A DNA stretch of 60,470 bases, the filler included, from Hausera hauseri (Eukaryota): NCBI GenBank assembly GCA_046269625.1. It is 10 parts of 10 records of this genome, joined end to end, with 100 filler letters (N's around TTAATTAATTAA, not from the genome) between each part and the next. Parts side by side here need not be neighbours in the genome. Positions count along the whole stretch, not along the records: positions 1 to 8,897 come from JBJURY010506574.1; 9 more parts are not named here. One strand, written 5' to 3'. The stretch's first letter is position 1; every line of letters starts with the position of its first letter. The translations under genes and the position numbers were made by a program. The notes below the pieces were generated by a model. The model was not told the DNA's origin, searched no databases, and saw nothing but the letters and a program-made list of their open reading frames with translations. Below, one piece after another: positions 1 through 59,147 of the stretch.

Positions 1-26
1 GCCCTTTTCGTCATTTCGGTCGTCTT

Positions 27-1493
27 TTAAATTTGGTCGGTTTTAGTCATCTTATGTGTTCTTCTAAATATATAATCATATAAGGAAGGTTTCTTCTTTG
101 GGTTTTGGATCGGTAATTCGATCTTTTCCTTTTTCTTCGGAATTCGAAAGATCTTGAAAATTACGTTTTTGGTCAATTCTTCAGTCGATTTTTCGGATTT
201 CCTGTAGCTGGTACCGGGTAGTTCACTTAAGGTAATTTGAAGTGCAGTTATCTTCAAATTCTCCGTTTTTGTAATTTCGTCAGTTTTATACGGTTAATAC
301 TGTTTCCGGTACTTTCTATTTATTCTGTCTGGATTCGAAGAACTACATAAGTTGCGTTCAGGGTTACGAGGAACCCGTTCGTGTTCCCACTTAATCCGGC
401 ATAAATATCTCGGAGATATTGGGTGCGTTGGCTTGCTGTTAACATTTTACTGACCTTGATGCGGCCATTACTCATGGCATCTACTACTAGCTTGAAGTAA
501 GCGTCCGTGATTCTCGGCATCGGGTAGTCACTTTCCCGTAACTATTTCTTCGTCCATTCGGCGATATCAGAGTGCGTACCGAGCTCTCTTATTCCTGAGA
601 GTTTCGAGTAAGGAAACTCCAATAGGGTTATAACTTCCTCCACACGGTATCCAGCAAGGATGTATCCGTAGAGACAATGTTCTAATTCTGTTTGTACAAC
701 TCTGATGTCCTTCCCCTTCCTAAGGTTTTCTTTACGAATTCCTGTTTGATCATAATGTCCCTCTGACGCGTTTCCTAGGGCTAATAATTGTATGGTATGT
801 TTCCATTCCATTTGTTTCTCTGACTGAAACCTCCAGCAGAATTTTCTCCGTTTTACTCCCTTCGTCACAGTTGATGGCTATAATTCTTACATTTCTGGCA
901 TTTGGTACTAGTCTATATGAGTACAAAGAATCTTCTAATTCTTTTTATAACGGTTTCTGCTGAACTTTTAGGGACGGCAACGGATCATGGGATTGTTCAT
1001 CACATGTTACTTCAAACATCGTCTTGACCGGAGAAGCGGCAACTGGGAATTCTAATTCATGATTTTGCAGATCTTCACTCCGTAATTTAAGAGTACTAAA
1101 CCTATATTGGCTTTCGTTTCCCGTGCTGCACTCTTGGTCTCGGAGCCGGTAATATATTTCGCCATCGGCTAGATGAACATGTAGGTTCCGGCCGAATTGG
1201 TAATTTATTAAGTGCTTGAGTGAATAAGCCTTGGCGTCTCGGTCTTCTCTCAGGGTATAAAGATAGATGACTCTGGCTTCTTCTTTGGTGCACTTTAAAT
1301 TATTCGGAATGGTATGAACCTGATCATATTTTACGGCTGCTCTCCCGTGCAGTTCGTTACGGATTTCTTGATAAATAAAATTAGAGTTCATGATAAGTAT
1401 GGTAGCGCAATCCTGTAAAAATTCGTCGATACTACATCGGCATCCCAAAAGGACTTCTTTTTTTGGTTCGTCGATGCTACATCGTCCGGCCAT
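27..1493 (-). pseudogene. Orphan 3' accessory ORF (~490 codons when reconstructed), copy A
   Basis: Track ORFs 945-1493, 542-868, 320-520 and 27-257 read through single stops or frameshifts. They are homologous to 39124-40408 and 28027-29502 (shared YLRDIY.AL.W.HE motif). Confidence 0.7.
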
Positions 1494-1503
1494 GTTCTTA
1501 GAT

Positions 1504-1534
1504 CTAAATAATAAACAATAAGGGTTACTCTTAC
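1504..1534 (-). promoter_or_regulatory. Putative splice acceptor before the orphan ORF (copy A)
   Basis: GTAAGAGTAACCCTTATTGTTTATTATTTAG followed 10 nt later by ATG; conserved in copies B and C. Confidence 0.55.
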
Positions 1535-1589
1535 AGTAAACAATGTTGCTAAAGTTAAACTAATGATATAATAACCCGCTCTGTAATTG

Positions 1590-3030
1590 TCAGGTTATTT
1601 TATCATATAGATCAATAGGGGCTTCCAATTCCTTTAGTTCCAACTCTGTAATTTTAGGACGCTTAGAATGATAATTTTTGGCAACTGACCGAAAAATCGG
1701 AATTAGTATAATGAGAACAAACGTTGATAGCACGACAATGGATATTATCGGTAGTGTTAATTCCATTGGGGCTTGTGTGGTGACTGGAGTTGTGACTTCG
1801 TTGTCTATGTTTTCGTATATATACGATTCTGAACGAATTTCGTCTAAGGTACGCAATGCAATTGTTTGATTTTGTTTATTCTCTGCATATACTTGTACTT
1901 TGTAATCGGATCGTGGTTTTAACAAATTGCATTTTGTCTGATAAGTGTTTTTAAATAGTGTTACAATTTGCTTATTATACGTTGTTCGGCAGCTTATATG
2001 TATATCGTAATTTAGTTTTTCCTATACAAAGAACACAATTTTAAATCGATGTGCCGAATATTTAACAGGTACACTTTCTAATTCTCTTCTAGGTCCACTG
2101 CTTGATGTAACGGGTCTCATAATGGCACTAACTCGAGTAGTCGGCTTTTCGGTTGTCGTTTCTATTGGAATCATGCATATTCTATTCTTTGGCTAATAAG
2201 TTCGCGGATGTTTGCTCGGTTTATTCGGTCGTACTTCATATAAGTCAAATTTTATTTTGAATTCATGGTTTACTGGTACCTTACAGCATGTGTATTGCAC
2301 ACAGGCATGAACGGAACAGAATTTTATTTTCGGAGTTTTTCGTCTACTGCTTCGAAAACAATACTAATTTTTTGACTAATTGTTAATCCTGTTCGAGCAT
2401 CTACTTGGATGCATTGTTTTCCTTGGTATACTAAGATCTCTTTGATATTTTCATCTTATAGCCTTATATTTGCGTCGGTGGATTGTAGCATTTCGTCGAG
2501 TTTCACTTCGAATTGTCTAGGCCAAGTGGGAATGACCAACTAAAGTCGTTGGTTTACTTCGATATAAACTTCTGATGAGCCTGGTAAGTATAGTCGAGAA
2601 GTAAAGATGTAAACATGTTCATAATTTATGTCGCAGCATTGTGTATAATCTCCGGGTTCAAAATCGCGGTTTTTTACTTCTTTTGTTGTTACATCATATG
2701 GTACAACTTGAAATCTTCCGAAATCGTGATGCGGTGTCCAAGTTTTAAATCCGACGCACACAGAGTCTGGCGAAAAGTAATGAGCCTTCATTGATTGTAT
2801 TAAAATAGTGTCTTCTCGTTTTCGGATCTCTCAGGCCGTTGGTTTCGTTTCCATTATAGTATTTATAGGCTTTGATCTGCCTTTCCGAATTCCATATACG
2901 TCTCCTAGCATAGTTCTATCGTCCCACCATTGAGTTTGTGTTCTTGGAATGTAAGATGTATTTAGTGATAGTGCTAAAACTATCTGAACGTATGATATCG
3001 GTCTAGCAATTATTGAGGAAGTTTTTATCT
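1590..3030 (-). pseudogene. Type-I membrane protein: signal peptide, two Cys modules, FN3-like domain, Thr-rich stalk, TM, short tail
   Basis: Hydrophobic ISYVQIVLALSL in frame after IN; LKPRSDYKVQVYAEN matches the FN3 L.P.T.Y.V.V.A.N signature; TM LPIISIVVLSTFVLIILIPIF; tail ends YDKIT. Confidence 0.7.
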
Positions 3031-3059
3031 CGCGATGACGTAAATTGCAACGTTTATTG

Positions 3060-4200
3060 GGCCGTATCTCCGCCTTAACGAGTCTTTGTACTGATACGAC
3101 TTCTTCTTTGCCGTTTTTGTTAATGTACACTGTGGTTAGTGTAGTTCTGGTAATTTCGTACGGCCGTCTGCCTGTACGAGTCAATTTTAATGATGTACCT
3201 TTCTTGTCTACTGGATAATTTACATAAACCCAATTTTCTTGTTCTAAGTCATGCGGTTTCGCTTTCTTATAATATTGCTTTTTAAACTGTTCTTGATATT
3301 CTTGGGACATTCTTGATATTCTTGTTACCTAAGTCTGTGGATAACACAGCTTCACGTCCATACATCATGAAAAATGGCGTAAATCCTGTTGCCGGATGTG
3401 GGGTGGTATTAATTGCAAATTGAGTTCCTTCTAAAAATTGGTCCCAATCACTTTGGTTCTTAGCTACTACTGTTGATAATATGCGTCTGACAGTTGCATT
3501 CATTCGTTCAACCATTCCATTACACTGAGAGTGATGCGCGGTAGTAGTTAACTGTTCGATTTTGAATATTTTGGTAATCTTCTTGAATAGTTCACTTGTA
3601 AAATTTCTTCCTCAATCTGTTAATATTTGTTCTGAAGGTCCATATCGCCAAATAGTTCTTCTTACTACTACTTTGGCCAAGGTTTCTGCCTTTTGGTCGA
3701 TTAACCCTACCAACTCGACAAAATGAGTCAGCCGATCAATACAAGTTAAGATGTATTTATTGTTTTTGTGAGTCGTAGAAAGCGGTCCTACGATATCCAT
3801 TGACATGGTTTGCATAGGTCTATAGGGTACATTAACTGGTTTTAATTCCGCCATGTAATTCTTTGTCTTCTTTTGTTTAGTTGCCCATACTTCACAGGCA
3901 TTTACCCAATTTTTTTACATCAATATAAATGCTTGACCAAAAGTATTTGTTCAATATCCTTTCTAATGTTTTCTTCCAGGACATGTGTCCTGCGAAATAT
4001 GAGTGGTGTACCGATATCAAAACTTTAGTTCGTAAGTTTTTCGGAATGACTATCAGTTTTCTTCCTTTTCGCTCAAAATATAGAAAGTTTTCGAGACCCT
4101 TGTTGTTTGTAACACAATATTTGTGTCCATGTCGACGCAGATGCTTCTTTAATTGTCGTCCTTTTGGTATTATATCTTTCTTAGTAAATTCTATAATCTG
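3060..4200 (-). pseudogene. Integrase (HHCC, DDE core, GPY-like C-terminus)
   Basis: MDIVGPL..NKYILTCIDRLTHF, ILTD, VERMNAT, WDQFL..FAINTTPHPATGFTPFFMMYGRE, KL..GRRPYEI. Confidence 0.93.
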
Positions 4201-4209
4201 CCGGATAAT

Positions 4210-4756
4210 TCAATCCCTTCTTTGTTCGGTTGAGATTTTAATCGCTTTATCCAACGTTAAGGCACGTTGGCAATCTATTATTTTTTCAAGCTGATTTTTC
4301 TTCATTACAGTGATTGCATTTGTTTGGGTCTTTAATCTTGATAGTGTATCGGTATCTACATGTTTATTTCCTGGCTTACATTGGAATTCGATATTGCATC
4401 TAGAAATTTCTACGATCCATCTGTTAAGTCTACATGTCGGGTTATCTGTTCGCCATTTTAAAGTCGTGACGGCTTTGTGATCAGTGACAATTATAACTTT
4501 CTGCCTGTACACGTAAACGTTGAAGTGTCGAAGCGCTTCTTTTACAGCTAGTTTCTAATTCAGTAACAGAATAATTTTTCTCGGCTTTCTTCAAGGAACG
4601 TCCTCCATAAGCAATTGGGTGTTCTAATTCTTCATCTTCTCTTTTCTGCGCTAACTCATAACCAATGCCTTCCTTAATGGCGTCTGTCTTGATTATAAAA
4701 GGTAAGCTAAAATCTGGATATCGCAAAACTGGTTCGCTTGTTAATATTTTCTTCAT
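4210..4756 (-). pseudogene. RNase H (Ty3/gypsy)
   Basis: PVLRYPDFSLPFIIKTDA, PIAYGGRSL, NYSVTELE, TDHKA, RLNRW, KPGNKH. Confidence 0.92.
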
Positions 4757-4792
4757 ATCATCAAAAGCTTTCTGTTCAACGTCTGTCCATTT

Positions 4793-5569
4793 CTATTTAA
4801 TTCCTTTTTTAAGCAAGCGGTATAAGGGTGCATTAATTTTCGAGTTATCCGGCATGTAAGTTGCGTAATATCCGCATAATCCTAACCAGTGCATTAGCTC
4901 TTTTTGATTTTGTGGTTCCATACAATCGGATATTTTGTTCAATAACGATTTATCTGGTTTCAATCCTCCTTCGCCAACTATATGACCTAAGTAGGATATG
5001 GCGTTTTGGGCCCATTTGCATTTCTTCGGATTTAATTTCAAACCAGCTTGTTCTAGTCTCATCAGCGTATGTTCGATATCTTTTAAGTGTTTCTCTTCTG
5101 TTCTCGATGCTATCATCACATCGTCTAAGTACGCAAAAGCATGATCCAATCCAATTAACATTTTGTTCATCATCCTTGTATATATGGCTGGTCCGGTAGT
5201 AATACCGAAAGGCATGACATTAAATTCATAAACGCCATCATGAGTTTTGAATGCCGTTTTATAGCGGTCTTCGTCCTCCATCTCTACTTGCCAATATCCG
5301 GATTGTCAGTCTGGAATGGTAAACCATTTCGCTCCTGAGAGTCGGTCTAACGCCTCTTTGACCGACGGTAGTGGAAAAGAATCCTTCATCATAAGATTAT
5401 TTAAGGCTCTGTAATCAATACAAAATCGATGTTTCGTGGTACCTTTCTTCTTAACCATGAGGATTGTTGAATACCAAGATTTATAGCTAGGCCTGATTAT
5501 GTCTGCATTAATCATTCGTTCGAATTCTTTTGTTATTTTGGGCCTTAATGAATGCGGCGGGGGTACCAT
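4793..5569 (-). pseudogene. Ty3/gypsy reverse transcriptase
   Basis: RFCIDYRALN, FPLP, KTAFKT..YEFNVMPFG, AYLDD, KLNPKKC, YLGHIV. Confidence 0.95.
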
Positions 5570-5970
5570 TTTGGCATCTTTTGGTCTTCCAAATCTGTTT
5601 TCTCGTTTGACCCTGGCTTTTTCTTGAATGGAATAGTTAGTTTTAAGGCTTTCGCTCTCCCGATATCTTCTTCGTCTTTTGCAATAATCGATTTATTTCG
5701 GCATAACAATTCGTAGAATCGACAATAAGACTCAGGTGAAAATTTAGTTTCGACACGAGGTGGAAATTCGGCATTCTTGTAAGGTTTTCCTTTGATAGTT
5801 ATTGACGATACTCTATACGTGTCTCCTAAAGTAGTATAAGCATGGAGCTTGACAGGAGTTTGCGCGTTATTAGCTATTCTGATTGGTACTCGACCGGAGT
5901 CTACTCTCGTTAATACATTGCTGAGTAATATATTCGGATCTAACATATCTCTTGGCTCAAAATATACTGG

Positions 5971-6400
5971 TTAATTGTCATCTTGCTGTATCTGGGCATA
6001 AATTATAATTTCTGTTCTTGGAGGAATGTTTTTGTCAACTGGTATCCACAATTCTCCAAATTTTCTATCCTTAGCATTTTTCACACCTTTTTTGGACCTG
6101 ATTTCTATTAATTTTCCTGTTTGTAAGACGATTGCTATATTTGGTAGCCTTTTCAGTAGATCACATCCTAGAATGATGTCATCCGTTAATTGTTCCATAA
6201 TTGCGAATTTATGATGAAATGTTTGCCCAACTATTTGGACTTCTGAGTTCCATTTAAACATTGGTTTTGACATTTGGCCAAAAGCTCTTGTACTTCCTGG
6301 GTCTTTTGCAGATGGAGGATATAATTGTCCTCTTAGAGTTTTGGTATTGAATCATTTTAATGCAAGACATTTCCGATCCTGTATCGATTAAGGCATAAAC
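5971..6400 (-). pseudogene. Retroviral-type aspartic protease
   Basis: VYALIDTGSEMSC at 6400-6362 (DTG at 6385-6377, not in the ORF track); DIILGCDLL downstream. Confidence 0.9.
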
Positions 6401-6990
6401 TTCCCAATTTTCAATATTGATTTTGGCGAAGGGTCTCCTTCTATTACTGTTCCGAAACAGTTCGGTGTATCCTTTGAGAGTTTTGCCCCTGATAATTTGT
6501 GTCCATTAATTCGGATTTCAAGAGAGGATACTATATTCTCCGATAATTGTTTTAATTCTTCATTTGGGTATAATTCGTTGATTTCTATGTGTACTTCTTC
6601 CGCTTCATGTGTACTGATTAGTGGTTCTCGATTATTAGTATGTAATTCAGTATTCTGGAAAGTTTTTAACCATGGATTGTCCCAAACCATTGATCGAGTT
6701 TCTATATTCCGAGGTTTTCTAGGGGAATACAACATCTTGGGACCATCCGTGGATTGTCGGTAACACATTTTCCGTAGAATTCCGTAACGCTTTGTTCCCT
6801 CATAAGGATCTTCTACATTAATTGTTCTTTTATAGATTTCCGTCTGATATAAACTCATGGATTGTTTGTCGCAATCTTCATAGAATGGAACTGTAGGAGG
6901 TAACATGGGCAATGGCGCTTTAACGACAGAGTACATCTTATGTCTATTTATTCCTAAAAGTACTTCTTCTTCCTTAGGGTCGTCATCATC

Positions 6991-8897
6991 TTAATTATTT
7001 CTTCGTAAATTGGGTTTTGAAAGTTTCTGCTTCCGCAAGAATATGAGTCTTCCTTTTCGTTTACGATTGTAATAGTCAACATGGCGTTCTACGTCCGATT
7101 TCCATCTATTTTCTTCGTACGCTTTCAAAAATTTTCCAAAAGGCGTTATGATTGCCGTCAATACCTTACATGAAAATCCAGTCAATGTAAATATTTCATA
7201 ACCACTTATTACTGCTTGGATGACTGCTTTAATCATCTGTATCAAGAAGTATATCGCTAAAAATCCGGATGCAGTTTGTCCGAATATCAGAAATTTTCCC
7301 AACATTTTGTAAGGTATTTCGGTTGTTACTCGCTGATAATGATTCACACCGAGTAAAGATTCCAATTTAGCTTGATATAGGGTGTCGTCTACTACCCACG
7401 CCATAGCTCGGTTTAACTCGTGTGCTCGTTGTCGTGGAAAAGCAAGGAATTGTCTGAAAGCCTCAATTTTTTTCGGTCTGTATATACCTTTTGAGGAGGT
7501 GTCTTAAAATTTGTCGTCAATTTATTTGGAGCGACAATAATACCTCCATTTGGCAAACTAACCCAATCTGTCTTACTACGTCTAAACATAGGTTCTCCTA
7601 AGATTGCCTTACAATTTTTAAGAATGGTCGGTTGGGTAGCGTTATCCAATAACACTTTCGTCAGCGGTGTAGCCAATCTCGGAATATTTTGGTAGATAAC
7701 AGGAAGTTCCTGGATGCAACGTTTTTCTTTTACGTTGATGGGTACATCTCTCTTTTCACATTCATAAGTTAGCAATACCTCGCTTGTAAACCTACCAAAA
7801 ATTCCTTCTTTCATGGAAATTATCGGAGAAGCTAATTCTGGGTTTGCATATATCAGAGCCATTTTAGTTCTCATAATTTGTGTATCCAATTTGCAGTCAT
7901 TCATTATCATTTTGTGATATAATTCTGTTATTCCAACTTGTCCTTTATAGTAGAAGAAATCATCTCTATTTTTCAAGTAATCTTCGACGCGGACATCCTA
8001 TGTTTCTAACTTATAAGTTTTCGCACTTATCTCCGTTTCTGCGACAAAAAACGCTTCATAGTTTGTGACAAACATCACTACATTACATGGAGAGATCATC
8101 TCTTTTTTAATAAACTTCAACCCATGTTAACCCGAAATTAATATAGTAGGTGTAGCGTGTTCCAATACATCTTCACAGGTCCTCGAATTGGATTCTGATT
8201 TGTCCACATATCGTTTTCCTGTAGTCTCATTGAACTTTAGTTCTTTAATTTTAATAAAATTACAATTTCTTCCAGAAGGAGGTTCCCATATTATCACCGA
8301 GCTTCTAAAAGCACAGGTTACATCTTGTAAATGACATTTCTGATTTTTAGTGTATAACTTAGTGACATTATGGAACATTACCTTCTGTGATCGCATTTTT
8401 GATTCGTAAAAATCCACAACCACCACATTTGATTTTAATCCTTTTCCGGTATCGTATTCGGCTCTATTACAATGTCCACTATGCATATCTAATCTTCTGG
8501 CTACTACTTTTTATGCCCTGATTATTTTCCCTGGCTGCATCTCCAATTGCATACTATCCAATTGTATTCTCCCAGTTTCCTTGGCTTGCTTGCAGTGTTG
8601 ACGTTCTAAGTTCATCGGAATTAATGGGGTTCTTGGTTTGATTATAGATGAGTGTCCATGAATCAACCCACAGTGAAAAATTCTACGTGATCGTTTCAGC
8701 ATGCATTCCATTCCATTTAGCCATATCAATTCTTACTGATGATACTGAAAATAATTTTTCTCTTTTGTCTCCAACTTGTGTGGTCTAGCATCATCGCATG
8801 CTTCCAGATCCATTAGAGAATATCTCTGTCCTAGCTTAAACTTATCGCAGTCGTAGACAGTTACAGCGTCTATATGCTTTATTAGCACCATCAAGGT
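6991..8897 (-). pseudogene. env: Chuvirus-like / herpes gB-like class III fusion glycoprotein (env)
   Basis: One frame from 8897 reads TLMVLIKHIDAVTVYDCDK..YSLMDLEAC..CMLKRSRRIFHCG..VIIWEPP..C..GIFGRFTSEVLLTYECEKRDVPINVKEKRCIQELPVIYQN..PLTKVL..C. After a frameshift near 7410 comes a hydrophobic C-terminal segment FLIFGQTASGFLAIYFLIQMIKAVIQAVISGYEIFTLTGFSCKVLTAI. This Cys/motif pattern is what I recognise from chuvirus-type glycoproteins carried by retroelements. Confidence 0.8.
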
Positions 8898-8997
8898 NNN
8901 NNNNNNNNNNNNNNNNNNNNNNNNNNNNNNNNNNNNNNNNNTTAATTAATTAANNNNNNNNNNNNNNNNNNNNNNNNNNNNNNNNNNNNNNNNNNNN
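8898..8997. other. Artificial contig linker
   Basis: N44-TTAATTAATTAA-N44, with stops in all six frames. Confidence 0.98.
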
Positions 8998-11910
8998 ATT
9001 CTTCGGATAATCCGAGGTATCCATATGTTGGGCCAATTGGGCAATGTCCTTATAAATATCATCTGTATGGATCTGATAGACAAAACTATCAGTATCCATA
9101 TACATCAGCTACATGGACTTGGAGACTTGGGGACCATGATGTCATAATGGAATTGATACATCAAGGTGTTTGACAGATTTAATATTGCCATACCCACATA
9201 TATGGGCTTATTGAATACCAAGGATATTTTCAGCATATGGATGCTGACAATGTTCTCAGTATATATGGTGCTACTGTGGAAGTTAGGCTTGGCAATAAGC
9301 TTCTTTGCCCGCTTTCACTGAGAGACCAGGTCGATGTTGATCCTGTAGCGGATATTCTCCACCGTCTTGCCAAAAACGCTGTTGTTGTAAAGCTTGAAGT
9401 GATCCTTCTCAAATTCGTTCTTGGCATTTGTCCGCAACTTGGTATTGAGATCTATGTAGAGCTGAAGCCACATGGACTGGCTGAACTGCAGAGTTCTATG
9501 GATCTTTGTAATGCGGAGTCCATGTCTAAGTGTCTGCTGGAGATTGATGTAATGGACTACATACCTCTCCCTATTACCCAGATGACAAAGCAGCTTTCTA
9601 TGCTTTCCATGGGGCGGAGGTCTGCTCTAAGGGAGGAAAGGCAGCTGTTGATGCCTTGCGTGGATAGAAGCCGGATATTCCATATTCACCTCAAGTATGT
9701 AGCCCGTATCTCCAGTGGGATCCAGATCCAATATAGGAATGTTTTCAGGATTCGCGACCCATTTAAAGTTATTATATGGCAATGGGGCGCTCATTACATA
9801 TCCATACAAGTTGTTGGCATTCAGGTATGATATATATGATGATTTCTTGGATGAATCATACTGGACTATATACTTGTTGTTGGCCTCGCTATACCGATGA
9901 ATGGCTTGGCATATTTCGCCCCTAATGCCTCTCTCGATCGTAAGGATCATGTCGTAATCCTTAATGATCTGCAACCTAATACCAGTATATCTCAGCATAG
10001 CTGCCCAGCTCATACTTAAAACCGTAAAGAAATGAGCCAAATCCAATGCATGGCTCTTCATTGTAATATCCCTGAAACTCTCAAAGACATCTGTCAGAAG
10101 AAACACGTCCGTTTTGAGGTATACGTTGCTGTATTCCCCTATTGTCCTGTAGTTGAATGCCTGCCGGACATTCTGAGCTTGCTGATAGTCCTCATTATTA
10201 ATATCACGGTTCGACAACTGGCTATAAAGTCAATTCTTTGGCAGTAATTATGTCTCATCTAGTGTTTCCCATGATGTTATATAGTCGTGGGGAAACACTG
10301 CTTTCCTTTTAACTAGGTCAAATTTAGTGGGAAAGAACCGCTTGGTCTCCTTGAGTTCTTCGTCAGGGAGGTTCTTCATTAAACTATCCTGTAAAGACGA
10401 CATGAAACGGAAACTGTCTATGAAGCGAAGCTTGATTCTTCCAACATGCTTAATGAAAATAATGAATTTTTCCTCACTATTGGGAAAGATATCAATGTTC
10501 CCATAAATGTTGCCCAGTTCCCAAACAATGAAGGGGGAATCATATCCACAGAGATTGTAGAACACTACATGCACACATGTGAATATTTTGCAACGCAGAT
10601 TGCAGTTGTTTCATGCTGCACCTCCATATTTGCCTGTAAAATGGCAATGATCCATGACTTTATGATTAGTAAAGGACATATCGCACAAGTAACATGTTGA
10701 TGCCTTGCGCCATTCTTCTTCTTGCTGCTTCGACATGCTCATATTATCCTTATGCTGAAGCATATTTTCAAGCCTATGAGCCATGTCTTCAAGTCGTTTC
10801 ATGAAATGTGCTGCTGCACCTAGACCTCTGAATGGAAATGGTTCATTGTCCAGTCATTTGGCATACATGCAATATGATGAGAGTTCATTATATTGGTGTG
10901 CCGTTGTGCTACTATGTTGAAGATTAGGGCTGCAGCTGAGAATTGGCCTGAGAATAGCTTCAAAGTCGCCTTCCCAAACTCCTTGAATTCAATGTAGTCT
11001 TCCTTGGGGAATTCTGGCCTGATGGAGTAATTGTTGTTACAGTACATCTTGTGCTTCTTCAACTTCTCCACAGCTAACTTGCCGCTGAAATGGGAAAAAC
11101 ATCGTTCGCATATTTCGATTCTTGTTGTGTATTTATAATTTGGGATCTGACTAGACGTTCAAAGTTCTTGATTCAAACATAATGTTTCTTTTCTCCATCG
11201 TTTAGCAGGAACCGATCCCTATGATCTTCCAATTCAATGTCGCATATATGCAGGGGATAGAATTAGTCCTCGTCATCCAAGCCAATGATGTTGATAGACA
11301 CGTTGTTGATTCGACTGAACTTTTTGACTTCATCTATGGATGGAGGGAATGTGATACACTGGAAGTCATAGTTGTGCTGCACATCCTTATATAGCCAAAT
11401 TCAATCTGTTGCATGTTTTGGATCCTGTACGAATTTACATAAAATGGCATACATAAAACACTTGTTGTCATCATTAAGGACATTAATGCATGCCTTTTTA
11501 TTAACGATCCATTCTGGAAGTTGTATATAGGAGCTGCCCCGCATGGGAGAGTAATTGTGAACATACACAAGCAATCTCTTGATGGTTGCCAGAGTCCATC
11601 CGCTCTTCTTACGCTGGCTCTCATCGGCTTCACGGATCAGCTTCGCATGCTCTTCATGCAGTTATTCTGCTATATTGGCGTTTTCCAATATGGGCCTACT
11701 TTTGGTCTTGAAGGCTCTATTGGATTCTTCGCCATAGACATTGATGTATGTAACCTCCAGTTTCATATTAACCTTAATGGCCTTGAGCTCAGCTATGTTG
11801 TCCTGGTGAATTCCTTCTGTTTCTTCCTTTGTATATTTTAAGAACTCCGTGACGGTTGTTTGGTCAGTTGTATCAATAACATATCTACGGCATTTTCTCT
11901 TTAATGCTGC
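8998..11910 (-). pseudogene. Polinton/Maverick/adintovirus-type protein-primed DNA polymerase B
   Basis: INVLNDDNKCFMYAIL (OTU-like region), TCYLCD..DHCHFTGKY (endonuclease VII-like insert), RFIDSFRFM, YLKTDVFLLTDVFESFR, YLNANNLYG (motif A), KLYNNSVFGKT (motif B), YMDTDSF (motif C). Confidence 0.92.
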
Positions 11911-11914
11911 TGCA

Positions 11915-12600
11915 TCAATTGGCCGCTGTCTTTGACTTTTTGTTGGAGCTGCTACGCTTGATGGGCCTCAAGGCGTCTGATGGGCCTGATGCGCATGATG
12001 CGGCTGCACGTTTCAATTCCCTAAGATGTTTCGCAGCTGCTGCACCAGATTCTGCAGCATAATGCAAAGCAGAGTACTGCGAATAATGCTGCGAAGTAGA
12101 TGCATCAGTATTATGTTGCGCATTATAAATGGCCTTCTTTGATTTTAATGCGAAGTGACTCAAATGATGTTTGTGATAATTATAGAACCGTATGTAAATT
12201 GCACCGCATACAGTCTCGCATCCCGGACATATATAATATTGGATCCTTTTGGATTTGTGTCCATAATACCGCTGCATCGTTTCATGACACTGTTGCAAAT
12301 TATGTGCTTTGTTGTGCAATAAGGATAGGAACAGCACATCTGATTTGCTTTTGGGACACTTGTTGTCATTGGCATATTACTGTTCAATATTTCTTTCTTC
12401 GATTTTGTGAACGAATCCAGATGTTGTTTATGTTGATTATAAAATTCCTCGTAATCGCTCCGGTACACTACCTCACATGCAGGACATACATAGTATTGAG
12501 TCCTATTGTGTTGGTATCCAAAGCAATGCTGCATTACCCTGTGGCAATTCTGCTCCTCGTGTTTCTGCGCCATGCAAAATTTGTAGAAATTGCAAATCTA
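11915..12600 (-). pseudogene. Duplicated Cys/His (zinc-finger-like) region, probably the N-terminal part of the pPolB ORF
   Basis: QNCHRVMQHCFGYQHNRTQYYVCPACEVV..FYNQHKQHL versus QQCHETMQRYYGHKSKRIQYYICPGCETV..FYNYHKHHL. Confidence 0.55.
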
Positions 12601-25515: not shown

Positions 25516-26387
25516 CACATACGATTCGTTAAAGATACGATTTGGAATGCGACGACTTTTCGCGCCCAAATTTTCATCGAGAATGTTCGATTCGTCAATG
25601 GTTCGCTTTATTGCATGAGGCTTCGTTTGTGTCAAACTGTCATCGGCTAGATTTGAATCGTTGACAGTTTTCTTTGATTTGCGGGGTTTCTTTTCTTTCA
25701 AACTTTCATCACCGACATTGGATTCGTAGAGGGTTTTAATTGACTTGCGTTGTTTCTTTTCTTTCAGACTTTCATCGACTAAATGAGATTCGTTTGTAGC
25801 CTTGACTTTTCTCGGTATTTTGTTTAATTTAGCATTTCTTAGAGAACCAGCTTCCATGGTTAACATTATCTTAGATTCCGGAGAAGTTAAACCAAACTCA
25901 TTTCACTGTTTTTACTTTGTGTTGGTATTTTGGGCGTATCAATAGGCTTGAATGGATGTATATTATACAAGTCTTGAATTTGACTGCCTGTCAGTTTTAA
26001 TAATGTTGTAAACGATAAAGTGTCCATATCAGTTGTGATTTCTTCTGATAGTGTATCATTAACCTTTGCTTCTTTCTTAATCAATTTATCAGAAGAACTG
26101 ACAGTAACATCTTTTTGTAACGTGGTAGTTGTGGCACCAGAACATTCAGCATTTTCCGTGGAATTCAAGTTGTTAGTTTGACTATCTATATTTTCGATTT
26201 CACCTCGTACTTCGTCAGAATTATCTTTACCCACAATTTCACTGTGATCTTCGTCATTTTCTTCTTTGTCTATAATTTCTCTTTCATTTTTCTCAGTTTC
26301 ATCTTTATCTACAACTTCAATATCATTTTTGTCATTTTTACCAGCATCCGACACAAACAGTAATATGTTTTCTTCCGTTTTTATCAT
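25516..26387 (-). CDS. Low-complexity acidic/basic protein fragment with 22-aa tandem repeats
   Basis: Two adjacent ORFs in different frames; repeat units TLYESNVGDESLKEKKPRKSKK, TVNDSNLADDSLTQTKPHAIKR, TIDESNILDENLGAKSRRIPNR. Confidence 0.4.
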
Positions 26388-26759
26388 CTTTGAGTCCGAT
26401 TTGCATAAAATATCTTCAAATCATTTCATGCAATTATAGCAGAAAATTTTATATAAGACCGTCTAACGGCCTTCAACACTCGGTAAAACATGATTATTTT
26501 CGCCTTCCAGTTTTCCGAACCCTGCCAGAGGTCATATATTCATTATTTTGCACACTGTTTTTATATCACGCATATTCATTTAACAGTCTAACCTTTAACA
26601 ACCCTTATTTTTATACAACTTTTTATGTACAGTACAACCAACATGGACACACATACATTTATATATACACTATATATGATTTTATATATATATACACATA
26701 TATATCTTATGCGTCCTCTATCTCTCTTCCGTTGAAGTTCGACCGGATTCCCTAACCAG

Positions 26760-29503
26760 TCAATCTGGTTCCAACAGATGGTTTAAGGCAAGTAAACCCG
26801 CTAAAGGCCATGTAAAATTTCAAATACAGTTCACAGACAAAATAAATGATGTAACGAAAATGTGTGAATTCCAATACGGAATACAGCCGAAATGTTGCGA
26901 ATTGGACTTCGGACAAACAGACAAATACAAATTTCGTATGTACTATTACAAAATTCTCGGAGTCCAAACGGACGTAAATCTGCAGTTCGAAATAGCCATG
27001 CCAGGACAAAATAGAACAAACAAAGCGGAAATTAACAATTTAATTCAAAGTACTTACCCACAAGACAAATCTTGAATGATAACATAATCGGAATCTTTAA
27101 GGGCATCAAAAATAGATGTATTCAGATAAAAACCAAAACAGAATTAACGGGTAAGAGACAAATTTCCATTCGGTTCATGCCAATAAAAAGTCATTCCCCC
27201 AGTAAATTATTGTTACGTCGGATGTGATAGAACCAATCCATGTTGTAAAATACCAATGAGTCACAAATTCAAAATACAGTTCGATCTATAAAAAACCCGA
27301 CACAACGAACCAAGTATTTATCTAAGTAGCTATTATCCGAAAGATCGAGTATAGAAAAATCCTTTTCCAGTAATTCCGAGAAAACCGTCTTCTGTTTCAT
27401 GTACAATGACTGTTACTAATATCGTCACTTCGAGTAAAATGCCTGAAAGAGAATTAGAAAATATACCTTTTAAATATTTGAAGCACCACTATAAAATTGT
27501 TTTTCGTTGAGGAAAAGTTAAACTACGATATTAAGACCGAATGCCGCACCTTACACACCAGTCAGACAGTAATATTAAAAAATGGCAGCCACGAAACCAA
27601 ATGTAAACTATTACGACCACAACAAGACTATGTAATTCAAGTCTTTGCAACCAATAAAAAAGGCAAAACTTTTACGCTACGAACATTGAGCGAAATTCAT
27701 GCAAAACCCTGTGTATATTAATACCGAAAATATGGTTACCACTGAAAAATCAACTGAACTAACAACCTTGCCGATAATATCAATTTTCGGTTTGTCAACA
27801 CTTGTTATCATGATGATAATTGCGACTATTTTATTAATTTTCAAAAATTGTACTAAGCGTTGTAAAAATCAGAAGGTAGATATTAGGGTGAAAGTGTACC
27901 GAGACGAAAATAACCTGACAAATGCAGATCGAGATATCCTATCATCAGAATGAGAAAATATTTCATTTTGAAACGATGATCTGCCTTAGGCTTAATCTTT
28001 ATTTCTTTATTTTTAGAAGTGTAAATATGGCGGAAAAGCCGAAATTATCAGTTCAAACCAAAAGAGAAGACACTATGTTGAAGAATTTTTCCGTGAACAT
28101 GTAAGAGTATTAATGCCAATTCCAAATCCCTAAACCGCCAAATGAACACAGAATTACAAAACAAAACATTCCTAGAAATTAACGAAGAAAATAAAGTACT
28201 AAACGAACTAAAAGGAATTACGGAGGAAAGTTGAACTATCCGATTACATGCAATGGGAAATGACCCAAACGCTCGTATTTATGCGCTGAAATATCTGATA
28301 AATTACGAAACAGGCAACAACTAACAAATTTACATTCCCCTGGTAGAAGGCGAACTAAATTATAGAATCATCGAACAAACTTGGGACCTTAATCAATGCA
28401 GACAATGTAGGTTAAGCACCTTTAGTCTCTGCAGTGGTAGTTTTGTGCAAATGCGAACTAGAGTTTCGGATTATTGTAGTGTCAACAAAGATTATGTTCG
28501 AAATTACGTACGAAGATATACTTTTCGTCATCTTTTCCCCATAGTATCAAGAACTGCCATTGGAAAAGATGTAGAACAACATATAATGACGATCTACTAT
28601 CTAGAAAATGAAGAAGGCTCTTATGTTCCTATTGAAATTTCAAACCAAGAAATAAACAGAAAGAAAACACTTTCCAAGATTATTGCGCCTTGGGAAAGAG
28701 TCTGGGAAACTTTTCTGGACTTCACCGGAATTGAAAGGGAAAATCTCATCGAAGGGAGAGATATGAAAATACTTAAAGAAGTAAATCATGCAATATACGG
28801 GTGCATAATCGTTGGATATCAAGTCCAGAATGTGGGAGAGAAGATGTATATTAGACTCGAGAACATCGCAGGGATACGCGAAATGGATATACACTCGGTA
28901 GTTACGAAATAATTAGTAGTCACACTACAACAAAAGAATGGCTGTTTGCCCCTAACTGTAGAAGCTGGGTTTAAACTTATGCTAGAAGCCATGAGTGCTA
29001 AATACGTCCATATATAAAAACTATTATCAGCGAGATAGCGCAGTCAATACCTCCGAGATATCTATGTAGCTTTAAATTGGAACCATGAATGGTTACCAGA
29101 AAATTCGACACAGAACCTTCGAAGTAGAACTAACCTAGAAATGTTGAGCCATAAACACAGAAAAAATTACCGCGCTTATTCCAAAATATGAATTATTAAC
29201 CCCACGGAGGGAAACAATTTCCATGTCACTATTCCCACGCGGATAGAACGGAAACAACTCGACAACTCAAGGACTGCCTCGGAAGGAATAAATAGGCCAA
29301 GCACCAGTTATGGAATCAATTCAAAATTTCAATGAGCCGCATATCAGAAGAACGACAATTCAAAATACCAGAGGTTCCAAAGAAAACAAAGAAACTGAAG
29401 ATTGATGAGCCTCTCAAAGAAAAAAACGGAAATCTTTCTACGACTACCTCATCGGAAGAAAAGACAAATCCAAGAAGGAAAGGCACGAATCCCTCCATAT
29501 AAC
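26760..29503 (+). mobile_element. Copy C (more divergent) of the 3' cassette: FN3 membrane protein + orphan ORF
   Basis: CEFQYGIQPKCC; CYVGCDRTNPCC; CKLLRPQQDYVIQVFATN; TM LPIISIFGLSTLVIMMII; YALKYLINY; QYLRDIYVALNWNHEWLP; FKIPEVPKK. Confidence 0.85.
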
Positions 29504-29603: not shown

Positions 29604-30392
29604 TGGATCATAATCTGCCATGTATTTGTTGTTGGCCTCACTGTACCTGTGAATGACCTGGCAGATTCCGCCCCTGATGCCTCTCTCAACCATGAGGACC
29701 ATATTGTAATCGTTCAAGATCTGGAACCTTATGCCTGTATAGCGCAGCATCGCCGCCCAGCTTATTCCTGGAGCTGTAAAGAAATGGGCTGGATCTAACT
29801 TGCGACTCTTAAGGGTCACATCCCGGAAGCTTTCGAAGACATCTGTAAGCAACAGCACATCTATGAGGAGATAGATATCACTGTATTCCCCTATTGTCCA
29901 GCATTGGAAGGTCTGCCATACTCTTTGGGCGTGCTCATAGTCAGCATCGCTAATATGACTGGATGACAACAGACTATAGAAGTCCTCCTTGGCCGGTAAT
30001 GCTTCTTCATCCAGTATCCTTGAGCTCATCAGCTGGAAGATTCTTTACGAGGCTGTCCAGTGACGAGTTCATGAAGCGGAAGCTATTGATGAAGCGAAGT
30101 CTAATGCGGCCCACATGCTTCGTGAAGGTGATGTACTTCTCACTATTTGGAATCACATCAATGTTTCCCTCGATATTACCCTATTCTCGAACAATGAAGT
30201 GTGAATCGTATCTACTAAGATTGTGTAATAACGCAAGAACATATGTACATGTCTTGCAGCGTAAGTTGCAATTGTTGCACGCTGCGCCTTGGTATATGCC
30301 TGTAAAATGGCTGTGATCCCTGACTTTATGCTTGTCTCATGTGAATGGCTTTCTGCATAAGTAACATGTTGCTGCTTTGTGCCTATGGTGTC
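29604..30392 (-). pseudogene. pPolB fragment (exonuclease/EndoVII region, with internal deletion)
   Basis: DVLLLTDVFESFR, LDPAHFFTAPG, ERGIRGGI; continues the fragment at 32500-33950. Confidence 0.9.
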
Positions 30393-32500
30393 CACAGCGG
30401 CCGGTGCCTTTTGGCCAATTTAGTCGGGCACGGCCGGGCCTCCGTTGCCACCGCGTCGGGCCCATAGTTGGGCCCGATTCCGCGCCTCGAAAATTTTCCT
30501 AAATTTGTCGACAGGAGCAAGCACCACTGAATTTTGATTATATTTTGTAATGGTTATATTAAACAAATACCTGTAATATAAGATCTGAAGAGAGCCATAC
30601 TAGAATTGTTCAACTATACTGTGAAGAACTATCCAACGGTGTATATCTGTGCCATTTGGCCAACATTCTCATTTCCTATAGCATTCCTACCGTCTATACG
30701 TCCAGTCCCGGTCAGCGTGAATTAGGAAAACGGAAATCAAGAAAGAATTTTAAAAAAATACTTTTTGGAAACTTGTCGACGAAACGGTGTTCCTGAAATC
30801 TGCAATCGAGGCTTTCTGCACATCATGAAACATCTCAAAACAAAATCTCTAAAACAATGCAGTAGAAAACAACCAAATCGTTCCTCACATTTAAATCTGG
30901 ACTTTACCAATTTCACCAAAACGTTTCCTGCAAGTTAGTCTCATATCGAAACCATTACAAATGAAAATGGAAACTCATCCCATCTGCCATCTGCCGATTA
31001 TGAAAGCGATTCAGAAAATGCATTCACCGAAGAGTATAATAACAGTCCAAAATCCCAGCTCAACAACACAGAAGATTCTATGAAAGAACAATTAACACGT
31101 TCTGATTTGGGTTACAATACTCAATGAAACCCAAAAATCCGAATTTGCTCAGAAAGAAATTCCAAAATTTCCGGGAAGTCAAAGACGATAAAATACATGG
31201 CAATTTGGCGGCTGAGACGAAAAATGAAACGGGCCCAACGATGAATCTGTATTCACCAGATGGAATGTCTAAAAAGAATCGAAATTATTGGTCTTTGAAT
31301 ATGACAAGTGCTATGCTCAGCTTTTATCAGACATACAGACCATCACGCTTCGGTTTTAACCAAAAGAATAATGATAATATCAAAAGTCGACGAGCTAGTC
31401 TGCCTGATGAGAACACTGACGAATATGATACAGCGAACGTGGCCGAAGCCAATTCTCAGTGTATTGTTATTGTAGATAACTCAACTTACGATATGGATAA
31501 ACCAGCTAATCTTTCTGCCGCTATTTAAAAGCAGTCAAACAATAACAATATATTAAGAGAGAGAGTTCCACAGTCCTATCAAATCACCCACATCATCAGA
31601 CTATCACAAACCAGAATACAAACCAAAACCCAGACTAACGAATAATGTCAGACGTTTTAGCATCGACAGAACAACTGGAAACAATATCCAAAATCAAGTT
31701 CATGAAACGATAAAGAAATTTCATAAAATTATCGAGGCCCAATTACATGTACAGATTAACTCTAAGAAACTCTGTGATTCAACAATCTCTGATTTATCTA
31801 AACGTCTACAGGCTTTTATTTTTAATGTCTGGGAGGGAAAGGAAGACATTCTCAAGAAATATTACTCACAGACCGTCAATACAAACAAACCGTGACTTTT
31901 CATCGGAAGAAATTGATCTCAATAATTCCGATTTTTCTAGATTCTTATTTTTGAAACGAATGACTAGCAATTCGATTATCTATGGCAACGTAATTTTCTG
32001 TATTGTTTTCTAATTCCATTTTTATTCGTATTTTTGTCACTGTTTAATTGATAATTTTGTGGGACATAATGGATTAGTGCCGTGTTGTATATGTAAATAA
32101 TGTTTTGGCAATTTGTTTAAAAAAAATTTAAAAAAATTTTACACGTTTGAATTCGAACTCTTGTTGAGCCATATTTAGCGTAAAAATTCCTTCTTGGTTT
32201 AATCTTACAATTATCAATCGAAATTTGCTTATATTTGGAAATTTATTGTTTCAGTTTCTATAAGCGTGAACGGTGTGATCATATTTCAATTGTTGCTACG
32301 AATTTGCATATTTGGCCTATTTATTGTGTATTCAATAGTTGGTTGATTACAAGGTTAAAGAAACAATGCAAGTCGCAATAAATTCGTTCGGAGCTGGTGT
32401 ATACAGATGTCATCTTATTTTCGTGCAGAAGCGAACAAACCAACATCGGAGTTTAATTTGTCCATTTATAAGACCTAATAGTGCCATTCACATTTTTCTT
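30393..32500. mobile_element. ~2.1-kb insertion splitting the pPolB, with a GC-rich palindromic left end
   Basis: pPolB reads ..LQQHKGYMVM on the right side and ..HKAATCY on the left side. Left end starts CACAGC and contains TCGGGCCCA-tagt-TGGGCCCGA (30456-30477). Confidence 0.55.
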
Positions 32501-33950: not shown

Positions 33951-33991
33951 GCGCTAGTGGGTTTTATGAAATTTATAAAACTTACAGTATT

Positions 33992-38955: not shown

Positions 38956-39023
38956 TGTAGGTAAACGGAAGATATATAAATGAATTCCCGCAATTTTACA
39001 ATGAATGCATTTATCAATGCATT

Positions 39024-39123: not shown

Positions 39124-42100
39124 AGTGCACTATTGATCTGATTTCCGAATAGTTATTTTGAAATTATTCTGTCCCATGGGTTCCACGACTCTACATAGGG
39201 AATACAGACGGTACTGCTCCAGATACTTTTTGTTTATAGTTTCCGGGTCGGATGTACTTAGTAAATTTTGTTCTGGATTACTGGGTGTCCACTCATGGTC
39301 CCATTTTAAAGCTACGTAAATATCGCGCAAGTAGTGAGTGCGCTAACTTCCGGTTAACAGTTTGCTAATCTTAACATGTTCGCTGTTCATGGCGTCAACC
39401 ATTAATTTGAAATAGGCATCCAACTTTTGGCATAGGGTAATTCTTTTCTCACAAAATTCGTATAGTTTGTTCAGCAACTACTTGGTGTGTTCCGATCTTA
39501 CGCATTCCCACGATGCTTGAGCGGGGTATTTCCAGTAATTCAACAATCCTGTGTACGCGATATCCAGCGAGGATATATCCATATAAACAATGTTCTAATC
39601 GGCCTGAACAAGTTTGATGTCTCTACCTCTCGAGAGTGTTTCATTGCCAATTCTTGTCGTATCATGGTACGTCTCGCGAACGCATTTTCTCGGGCTAACA
39701 ATCGTATAATATACTTCTGTTCCTTGTGTTTCTCGAATTGAGACTTCCATTGGAATCTTTTGCGCATCATTCCCTTCTCCACAATTGAGTGCTATGATTC
39801 TTGTATTTCTGGCATCTCGCATTAGTCTATACGATTGTAAGAATGTGTCCATATCCCTTTCTTACGGTTGCTGATGAAATTTCAAGGGTGGCAGTTTGAT
39901 ATAGGGGTAATCATCGTACGTTATTTCGAACATTATTTTTACTGAAAAGGCGGCTACTCGGAATTCTAATTTATACTGCTGTAAATTTTCGCTACGTAGG
40001 CTAAGGGTGCTAAATCTATATTCCCTTCCGTTGTTCGTGTTCCATTCTTGATATTTAAATCGGTGGTATATCTCACCATCTGCTAGATTGATAAAAATAT
40101 TTTGGCGGTTTTCGCACGTGATCATTTGTTTGAGTGAGTATGCTCGGACATCCTTATCTTCTCGCAATGTGTAGAGAGAGACTATTCTATTACCTTCCTT
40201 TATACCCTTTAAATTTTTAGGAATTTTATTGGTCTGGTAATACTTCACGAAAGTTCTTTTATGCAATTCGTTATGAATTTCTTGATATATGGATTTGGAA
40301 TTTTGGCGGAAGACAGCAGCGTTATTCTACAGAAACTCATCGATGCTATATCGACGTTCTTGACTGGTTCCTTTTTGTGGGTTGTCGATACTATATCTCT
40401 CAAACATGTGAATACTCTCTAATCTGAAAAATAAACAGTAAGGATTACTCTTACAATGAAGAATGATCTTGAAATAGAATCAACTCTTTATTTGATGATA
40501 CAATAACCCGCTCTATAGATGTCAGGTTATTTTATCATATGGATCAATAGGGGTTTTCAATTCCCTTAACTCCCATTCCCTAGTTTTAGGACGCTTAAAA
40601 TGACAATATATAGCAACTAACCGAAAAATTGCAATTAATATAACGAGAACAAACGTTGCTAGTACAACAACTGATACGAGTGTTAAAGTGGTTAATCCCA
40701 TTGGTGCTTGTGTGATTTCATCGTTTATGTTTTCGTATATATGCGATTGTGTACGAATTTCATCTAAGGTACGCAACTTAATCGTTTGGTTTCGTTTATT
40801 CTCTGATATATACTTGTATTATGTAATCGGATTGTTATGTTAACAAATTGCATTCTGTCTGGTAAGTATTTTTAAGTAATGTTACAATTTGATTATTATA
40901 AGTTGTTTGGCAGCTTATATGTATGTCGCAATTTATTTTTTCTTCTACAAAGAACAATTTTAAACCGATGTGCCGAATATTTAATAGGTATACTACCTAA
41001 TTCTTTTTAGGCACACTGCTTGATGTAACGGTTTTCGTAATGGCAGTAACTTGAGTAGTCGACCTTTTGGTTGTCGTTTCTATTGAAGTCTTCCATATTC
41101 TATTCTCTGTGTAATAAATTCGCAAGTGTTTGCTCGGTTTATTGATCGTACTTCATATAAGTCAAATTTTATTTTGAATTCTTGGTTTACTGGTAGCTTA
41201 CAACACGGGTGTTGCACACCGGCATGAACAGAGCAGTATTCTATATTCGGGATTTTTCCGTTTACTGCTTCGAAAACTACACTAATTTCTTGACTAATAG
41301 TTAATCCTATTTGAGCATCTACCTGAATGCATTGCTTTTCCTTATATACTGTGATTCTTTTGATATTTTCATCTAATAGCCTTATATTTGGGTCGGTGGA
41401 TTGTAGCATGTCGTCGAGTTTCACTTTGAATCGTTTGATCCAAACGGGAATAACTAACTAAAGTTGTGGGTTTACTTCGATATAGACTTCTGATGATTCT
41501 GATAAGCATAGTCGATAAGTAAGGATGTCGATGTGTCCATAATTTATGTCCCAGCACTGTGTATAATATCCGAGTTCAAAATCACAGTTTTTCACTTCTT
41601 TTGTTGTTACATCGTATAGTACGATTTGAAATCTTCCGAAATCGTGATACGGTCTCTAAGTTTTGAATCCAACACACTCAAAGTCGGGCGAAAAGTAATG
41701 AGCCTTTACTGATTGTAACAAAATAGTGTCTTCTCGTTTTTGGATCTCTTCGGCCATTGGTTTGTTTTCCATTATAATGTTTTTCGGCTTTAATCCACCC
41801 TTCCGAATTTCATATACGCCTCCTAGCGTAGTTTGATCGTCCTACCATTGAGTTTGTGATTTTGAGATATACGAAGCAATTAACGACAATGCTAAAACTA
41901 TTTGAACGTATGTGATGGGTCTAGCAATTATTGACGAAGTTTTTGTCTTGCGTTGTCGTGAATTGTAACGTTTATAGGGTCTTATATTTGTCTTAACGAC
42001 TCTCTATAATGATATGATCACTTCCTTTCCATTCTTGTTGATGTACACCGCAGTTGGCGTAACTTTAGTAACTTCATACGGTCCTCTGCCTGTACGAATC

Positions 42101-57905: not shown

Positions 57906-59147
<1,242 letters not shown>

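What the first reader, a model, noticed from the sequence alone, without database searches (positions are those of the whole stretch)
27..1493. Four small ORFs are one ~490-aa orphan protein with a basic tail
Seen: stops fall at different codons in different copies. At one junction A has QKPL*KE and B has QQP*ERD. At the next, A has HSDIAEWTKK*LRE, B has HQVVAEQTIRIL*EK and C has HSVVTK*LVVTLQQ. The ancestor was therefore open throughout. Conserved blocks are Y(S/A)LK..I, L.(D/E)GE.Y.R, R(F/L)ST, YG.I..GY, (D/E)A.FKLM..AM and YLRDIYVAL.W.HEW.P, plus a Lys-rich tail (FKI..(I/V)PKK). Inference: a regulatory accessory protein or, since no gag is visible, a candidate alternative structural/nucleocapsid protein.
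Basis: partly seen in the sequence, partly recalled or inferred. Interest (0 to 1): 0.7.

Follow-up and report, generated by a model that had tools for sequence, protein, structure and literature searches.

The report
Retrotransposon accessory gene: disabled exonuclease
The broken reading frames are decayed copies of one extra gene of a virus-like jumping gene; its protein keeps part of the sequence of an RNA/DNA-trimming enzyme without the cutting residues, and an intact relative adds a RING finger, so it is likely a nucleic-acid-binding counter-defence protein rather than a capsid.

Summary
Confirmed: 27-1493(-) and two other window copies are one decayed gene. Breaks are copy-specific, selection was purifying, and an intact natural relative (P0018, 870 aa; 1 of only 2 hits among 1.84 billion proteins) spans all pieces. 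It is not an orphan. The middle is a DnaQ/DEDDh-type exonuclease domain (profile vs PDB DnaQ E=8.5e-6) that has lost the ExoI and ExoII acidic residues in every copy. P0018 runs on to a C-terminal RING finger. The copies align only to residue ~580 and meet sequence ends, so '~490 aa with a basic tail' is probably a truncation; the tail is a linker. The N-terminal ~170 aa stay unidentified. The capsid idea is not supported: env lies before pol and the contig ends inside env, where GAG-ENV-POL errantiviruses keep gag further upstream. Best guess: a nucleic-acid-binding pseudonuclease/E3 ligase against host silencing (inferred, ~45%). Synonymous divergence differs sharply between pol, the neighbouring membrane gene and this gene, suggesting cassette swapping. 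Active DEDDy ORFs are known in rotifer LTR elements; this scan already noted the same pseudonuclease(-RING) on other DNA of this genome.

The parts
27..1493 (-). Copy A of the accessory gene (decayed: 3 internal stops, 2 frameshifts); matches P0018 residues 58-580 of 870
948..1439 (-). N-terminal domain, about 165 aa, conserved in A, B, C, P0018, P0019; family unknown
   Evidence: alignment; no match in Pfam, PDB, Atlas; fold uninformative; AlkB profile test negative
398..923 (-). DEDDh/DnaQ-type exonuclease-like domain; homology shown for its first ~110 residues, the rest inferred
861..884 (-). Strand matching Exo I; the D-x-E pair is absent in 5 of 5 sequences
632..652 (-). Segment matching Exo II; the Asp is a hydrophobic residue in 4 of 4 sequences that reach it
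297..412 (-). Conserved block after the exonuclease-like core (IY..W.HE..P..N..S), broken by a frameshift in A
30..293 (-). Basic low-complexity linker, with a basic cluster plus S(L/F)YD motif at 72-98 shared by A, C and P0018 (NLS-like, inferred); internal in P0018, not a C-terminal tail
1593..3020 (-). Second accessory gene: decayed type-I membrane protein in frame after integrase (hydrophobic start, Cys-containing ectodomain, weak FN3 match, one strong TM helix)
   Evidence: (fn3 E=0.025, under cut-off)
2834..6420 (-). Decayed Ty3/gypsy pol (protease motif by eye, RT, RNase H, integrase)
6994..8897 (-). Decayed env (PF24664 viral fusion glycoprotein) upstream of pol, cut by the contig end
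   Evidence: (E 1e-18, 8e-14)
39124..40407 (-). Copy B of the accessory gene, cut by the contig end; preceded by the membrane gene and RNase H-integrase (to 43654)
28027..29503 (+). Copy C of the accessory gene, cut by the contig end; preceded by the membrane gene (matches from 27196), no pol match in this contig

Best explanation
The region is a decayed copy of an accessory gene of an env-before-pol gypsy element, whose protein joins an unidentified N-terminal domain, an exonuclease-like domain lacking its catalytic acids and a basic linker, and (in the intact relative) a RING finger; it likely worked as a nucleic-acid-binding ubiquitin ligase that would disarm host silencing factors. Shown: one gene, purifying selection, position after pol and a membrane gene, DEDDh-type homology, loss of Exo I/II acids, RING in P0018. 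Inferred: the dead nuclease domain still grips RNA or single-stranded DNA ends (as EXD1, Maelstrom and PML's PXL do), the basic motif takes it to the nucleus, the RING recruits an E2 and tags host proteins that gather on the element's RNA or cDNA, and the window's copies once carried the RING too.
For: Profile of the domain (A8) vs PDB: the top 4 of 6 hits are DEDDh exonucleases (DnaQ 8h18 E=8.5e-6, PolC exo 8e-4, SDN1 3.5e-3, ISG20L2 0.15). P0018 alone: DnaQ E=8e-4, phrog_192 E=1.1e-4, NCBIfam DnaQ/PolC E=0.004-0.01, Atlas top 3 hits RNase_T clusters at 0.87-0.89, leads only. Reverse test: a profile of 8 annotated phage/plasmid exonucleases scores P0018 23.7 and P0019 20.8 bits, best of 500 shuffles 3.9; profile-profile probability 80%, E 1.4e-5. 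The reference set keeps D-T-E, N..D and H.A..D invariant; none of the five sequences has D-x-E in either register. RING: PF00097 E=2.6e-7, 30.8 bits over the cut-off of 21, residues 747-790, the only well-folded domain of the model. Selection. Follows the membrane gene in 3 of 3 copies and pol in 2 of 3. Precedents: inactive RNA-binding DEDD derivatives (PMC5408684 passage; PMC13659232 abstract); ubiquitin/apoptosis domains in planarian Burro elements (PMC6431247 passages).
Against: No binding, ligase or expression data. The RING is seen in 1 protein only (P0018); no window copy reaches it, A has a stop at 27-29 that could be a true end, and no further full-length relative was found. P0018's own genomic context could not be seen, so its tie to a retroelement is assumed. 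Exonuclease homology covers only Exo I-II; Exo III could not be aligned with confidence and the window pieces alone do not score. Pfam RNase_T is under its cut-off (E=0.017). Invariant His/Asp/Glu residues leave room for a rebuilt active site. About a third of the conserved core has no assigned fold.
Confidence: 0.45

Rival explanations
1. A RING-less end-binding decoy: in this lineage the protein stops after the basic linker and only shields the 3' ends of the element's RNA or cDNA, or soaks up small RNAs; the RING is an add-on of P0018's lineage.
For: A has a stop at 27-29, about 15 codons after the last motif shared with P0018; similarity is strong only to residue ~460; modules of this family appear to be swapped.
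Against: C is open across that codon to its contig end; A has three other premature stops; an earlier scan note (e1-9139971, unchecked) reports a RING remnant in another copy in this genome.
Confidence: 0.2
2. An active nuclease with a rebuilt active site that trims the element's RNA or destroys immune-triggering nucleic acid, as the rotifer DEDDy ORF3s and arenavirus NP are thought to do.
For: Invariant polar residues in the domain (E253, E263, D291, E298, D305, H315, H351, H415, E416 of P0018); rotifer ORF3s keep their catalytic residues; Atlas lead to Arena_ncap_C.
Against: Exo I D/E and Exo II D are lost in all sequences; several of the invariant residues match structural positions of DnaQ; no model good enough to show that they cluster.
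Confidence: 0.15
3. A captured host or viral gene that merely rode along and did nothing for the element.
For: Earlier scan notes report frequent host-gene capture by LTR elements in this genome (118, unchecked); P0018's context is unknown.
Against: Synonymous sites are saturated between A and B while 58% of residues are kept, so selection acted long after the copies split; same place in 3 of 3 copies; only 2 relatives among 1.84 billion representatives, no named host gene.
Confidence: 0.1
4. A structural protein replacing Gag: it packages the RNA like a viral nucleoprotein, with the exonuclease fold as in arenavirus NP.
For: No gag match among 76 window ORFs scanned; basic linker; arenavirus NP exonuclease domain among Atlas leads; N-terminal domain unassigned.
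Against: The contig ends within env, before the place of gag in GAG-ENV-POL elements; it is the most divergent module between A and B; no Arena_nucleocap, Gag or capsid match; a RING follows in P0018.
Confidence: 0.08

Closest known systems
DEDDy exonuclease ORF3 of bdelloid LTR retrotransposons Juno/Vesta and of Terminons (PMC5408684, passages read; PMC6431247, passages read)
   Same: A DEDD-family exonuclease gene carried downstream of pol in a Ty3/gypsy-type element, shared between lineages as a module.
   Different: Those are RNase D-like DEDDy with catalytic residues intact; this is closest to DnaQ/DEDDh, has lost Exo I/II acids, has an extra N-terminal domain and, in P0018, a RING; the element also has a gB-type env and a second membrane gene.
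GAG-ENV-POL errantiviruses with HSV/gB-type env of nematodes, bryozoans and flatworms (PMC13524379; abstract, section 5 part 1, passages, rows of supplement 1)
   Same: Fusion glycoprotein gene upstream of a gypsy pol.
   Different: gag and LTRs not visible here (contig ends); two further genes follow pol; the paper's main text has no occurrence of 'exonuclease', 'RING', 'accessory' or 'fibronectin'.
PML isoform 1 with its PXL pseudo-exonuclease (PMC13659232, abstract only); EXD1 and Maelstrom (passage in PMC5408684)
   Same: Catalytically dead exonuclease fold kept for nucleic-acid binding; PML also has a RING (recalled, not from a call).
   Different: Host proteins; PML's RING is N-terminal in a TRIM (recalled); no sequence link to them was shown here.
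Burro/GYPSM1 giant gypsy elements of planarians (PMC6431247, passages)
   Same: Gypsy elements carrying RING-like, BIR and other ubiquitin/apoptosis domains thought to act on the host.
   Different: There the domains sit in a giant gag-pol polyprotein; no exonuclease is named in the passages read.
Arenavirus nucleoprotein C-terminal exonuclease (PF17290)
   Same: DEDDh fold in a virus protein (Atlas lead 0.87; listing of PMC13483370).
   Different: It is an active enzyme joined to a helical RNA-binding core (recalled); no Arena_nucleocap match here.

Membership tests
DEDDh/DnaQ-like 3'-5' exonucleases (fold) | Sequence homology over the Exo I-Exo II core | tested here: met
   (23.7 bits vs 3.9 best shuffle)
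DEDDh/DnaQ-like 3'-5' exonucleases (fold) | Exo III helix and complete RNase H-like fold | tested here: inconclusive
   alignment beyond Exo II has zero confidence; model pLDDT about 40 there; Foldseek no match
Active DEDD exonucleases | Exo I Asp and Glu | tested here: not met
   absent in A, B, C, P0018, P0019 in both registers
Active DEDD exonucleases | Exo II Asp | tested here: not met
   V, I, V, M in A, B, C, P0018
Active DEDD exonucleases | Nuclease activity | not testable with these tools
   needs an assay
RING E3 ligases | C3HC4 RING domain | tested here: inconclusive
   met in the relative P0018; window copies end before it
RING E3 ligases | E2-dependent ubiquitin transfer | not testable with these tools
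   needs an assay
GAG-ENV-POL errantiviruses | gypsy-order pol (RT-RH-IN) | tested here: met
   no RT tree was built
GAG-ENV-POL errantiviruses | gB-type env upstream of pol | tested here: met
   PF24664 hits at 6994-7997 (13); equating this family with the gB type rests on the paper's statement about chuvirus-like glycoproteins and recall
GAG-ENV-POL errantiviruses | gag upstream of env; LTRs | not testable with these tools
   contig ends at 8897; no genome held; no long repeat in 1-8897 (50)
Gag, capsid or viral nucleoprotein | Capsid/NP sequence or fold match | tested here: inconclusive
   no sequence match; folds too poor
AlkB/2OG-Fe(II) oxygenase barrel (lead from e1-9332486) | Profile match of the N-terminal domain | tested here: inconclusive
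   score 11.7 against 7 bacterial AlkBs, below at least 8 of 40 column shuffles; shallow profiles and one oxygenase family only, so a weak test

The most novel reading that the evidence does not exclude
A gene-rich invertebrate retrovirus-like lineage (env before pol, then a second surface glycoprotein, then a pseudonuclease-RING) carries an exchangeable counter-defence cassette: a nucleic-acid-guided ubiquitin ligase aimed at the host's transposon-silencing machinery, the invertebrate counterpart of the accessory genes of complex retroviruses, swapped between lineages like a phage anti-defence island.
Probability: 0.3. Interest if true: 0.75.

Novelty: new variant of a known kind. Interest (0 to 1): 0.48.

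Why it matters
Few LTR retrotransposon proteins are known to act against host silencing. A selected, catalytically dead nuclease fused to a RING, next to a second surface glycoprotein, would give these elements a complex-retrovirus-like accessory region and a testable handle on how they persist under small-RNA control. As it stands the identity of the domain is solid, the function is not, and the scan has seen this family before in the same genome.

Tried and rejected
No genome held for the window. Pfam on window pieces: nothing for the gene. PDB with window pieces alone: only a short 6-phosphogluconate dehydrogenase match (E 0.003-0.05), judged chance because it fades to E=1.1 once P0018/P0019 are added. 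Word-based homolog search with window pieces: 0 of 2706 candidates (it also missed P0018, so it is insensitive). Related loci: none in viral or metagenome contigs, so 'always next to pol' could be tested only in the window. Phage tblastn: no match; plasmids: 1 weak 3'-5' exonuclease hit, E=0.06. AlphaFold2 of P0018 (pLDDT 37.5) and of A's N-terminal stretch (35.2), and their Foldseek searches, were uninformative apart from the RING. N-terminal domain as a second exonuclease copy: no match. As AlkB-like: no match. Atlas on the N-terminal part: no usable hit. Sequencing runs: no RNA holder listed. The fall in contig depth from thousands over env/pol/membrane gene to about 5-600 over this gene (71, 135) was not used: depth is no copy number, the gene falls below the 80% threshold between lineages, and the 34 loose ends at 1563 resemble copy B's spacer (22 of 30 letters, by eye). 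A conserved split at the B/C shared stop was rejected. Literature: seven searches listed no paper describing an inactive DEDDh or exonuclease-RING gene in an LTR element; the library lacks most subscription journals and Repbase, and five of six spreadsheets of PMC13524379 were not opened.

Full report
Setting. The window is ten pieces of a eukaryotic assembly joined by N-linkers; no genome is held. The first piece (1-8897) reads on the minus strand: env (PF24664, E 1e-18 and 8e-14; cut by the contig end), a 200-codon linker, a gypsy pol (RT, RNase H, integrase), a membrane-protein gene in frame after integrase (weak fn3 match, one strong hydrophobic helix), then the gene in question. Everything is decayed. 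Copy B (39124-43654) has the same order from RNase H on; copy C (25516-29503) has the membrane gene and this gene but no pol match.

The observation. The quoted junctions are exact. Over 357 codon columns the copies have 2, 3 and 7 stops; one is shared by B and C, open in A and P0018, with 0.24 expected by chance. A also has a stop at 294-296 and frameshifts near 757 and 393. Substitutions are those of a protein under selection: A-B pS 0.78, pN 0.235; A-C 0.73 and 0.42; B-C 0.74 and 0.36. Contigs of run X1 reproduce A exactly over 96-421 and 439-1177, and others differ at A's breaks. A profile of the central pieces found 2 proteins among 1.84 billion representatives: P0018 (870 aa, E 2e-50) and P0019 (333 aa, partial), both unnamed single-member ENA entries. 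P0018 is open across every break and aligns to all three copies at 33-50% identity. Two more searches found no other relative: P0019 only among 1219 short candidates, and P0018 plus one RING-only plant hit among 5575.

Length. A matches P0018 residues 58-580 up to window position 3; B and C end at their contig ends; C is open past the codon of A's last stop. The basic stretch, with a basic cluster and S(L/F)YD motif shared by A, C and P0018, is an internal linker in P0018, followed by about 140 unassigned residues and a RING finger (PF00097, 30.8 bits, cut-off 21). Whether the window's copies had the RING is not shown.

What the middle is. P0018 alone hits DnaQ (E 8e-4) and the PolC exonuclease (3e-3) in the PDB, phrog_192 (1e-4) and NCBIfam DnaQ models. 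The domain profile gives DnaQ 8.5e-6, PolC 8e-4, SDN1 3.5e-3 and ISG20L2 0.15 as its top 4 of 6 hits. In the reverse direction a profile of 8 annotated exonucleases scores P0018 23.7 bits against 3.9 for the best of 500 shuffles. The window pieces alone do not score in that test, and homology is shown only for Exo I to Exo II; Exo III cannot be placed. The Exo I D-x-E is missing in 5 of 5 sequences and the Exo II Asp in 4 of 4. Since the replacements are themselves shared (A-I/L/V-N in A, B, P0018, P0019), the loss predates the decay. Nine invariant His/Asp/Glu remain, so a rebuilt site is not excluded. The h/y subtype rests on the nearest hits, not on Exo III.

The N-terminal domain remains open: no Pfam, PDB or Atlas match, AlphaFold pLDDT 35 (106), no likeness to the exonuclease. 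An earlier scan note calls a domain of a similar protein an oxygenase-like barrel; my test against seven bacterial AlkBs was negative, but it is a weak test.

Modular history. Between A and B synonymous difference is 0.52 (RNase H), 0.58 (integrase), 0.28 (membrane gene, 0.23-0.34) and 0.79/0.73 (the two halves of this gene); nucleotide identity steps from about 0.85 to about 0.65 near position 1600. The simplest reading (inference) is that the two accessory genes have different histories from pol and were exchanged between lineages; constraint on the RNA of the membrane gene is an alternative for its low value.

Mechanism. Shown: accessory position, selection, dead DEDDh-type core, RING in the intact relative. 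Inferred: binding of RNA or ssDNA ends by the dead nuclease, as for EXD1 and Maelstrom (passage in PMC5408684) and PML's PXL domain (abstract of PMC13659232); nuclear import by the basic motif; ubiquitination of host factors met on the element's nucleic acid. I put this at 0.45, a RING-less end-binding decoy at 0.2, a rebuilt nuclease at 0.15, a passenger at 0.1 and a Gag substitute at 0.08. The Gag substitute loses its premise because GAG-ENV-POL elements with gB-type env exist (PMC13524379, section 5 part 1 and passages) and this contig stops inside env.

Comparison and novelty. DEDD exonuclease ORFs downstream of pol are known from bdelloid LTR elements, with catalytic residues intact and of the DEDDy type (47); ubiquitin-related domains are known from planarian Burro elements. 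Seven literature searches listed no dead DEDDh or exonuclease-RING accessory gene; Repbase and most subscription journals were not searched, and only one of the spreadsheets of PMC13524379 was searched. This scan noted the same kind of gene twice in this genome (e1-9139971, e1-9332486), after I had reached the same reading; these are not independent support. Verdict: real, a new variant of a known kind, interest 0.48.

Noticed in passing
window 1593-3020 (-), 40525-41920 (-), 27196-27870 (+): A second accessory gene, a type-I membrane protein with a weak FN3 match, sits in the usual env position although the element already has a fusion env before pol; no Pfam family over cut-off. A possible separate attachment protein.
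   Followed up: partly
window 2540-2542 and 41458-41460: Copies A and B share a TAG at the same codon of the membrane gene (141); chance, inheritance or read-through not decided.
   Followed up: no
window 250-4700 vs 39124-43654: Synonymous difference between A and B is 0.5-0.6 in pol, 0.28 in the membrane gene and 0.73-0.79 in the exonuclease-like gene (142), suggesting module exchange.
   Followed up: partly
window 6391-6993 (-): env, one stop, and a 200-codon unassigned linker run in one frame towards the protease; env and pol may have been one long frame.
   Followed up: no
window 1420-1493 and 40340-40407: A and B both begin with a short duplicated motif (R-C/Y-S-I-D twice) not seen in C or P0018.
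   Followed up: no
window 9300-11950, 29604-33990, 46900-49100: Three related decayed stretches with type-B DNA polymerase and endonuclease VII matches, Polinton/adintovirus-like (label recalled).
   Followed up: no
window 37444-39021 (-) and 57936-58595 (-): Uninterrupted CLASP/TOG (526 codons) and S-adenosylhomocysteine hydrolase (220 codons) frames; host exons or retrocopies.
   Followed up: no
window 8898-8997 and eight more: Nine N-linkers with an all-frame stop spacer join unrelated contigs; neighbours across them are not real.
   Followed up: yes
P0018 residues 600-740: An unassigned segment with predicted strands lies between the basic linker and the RING.
   Followed up: no
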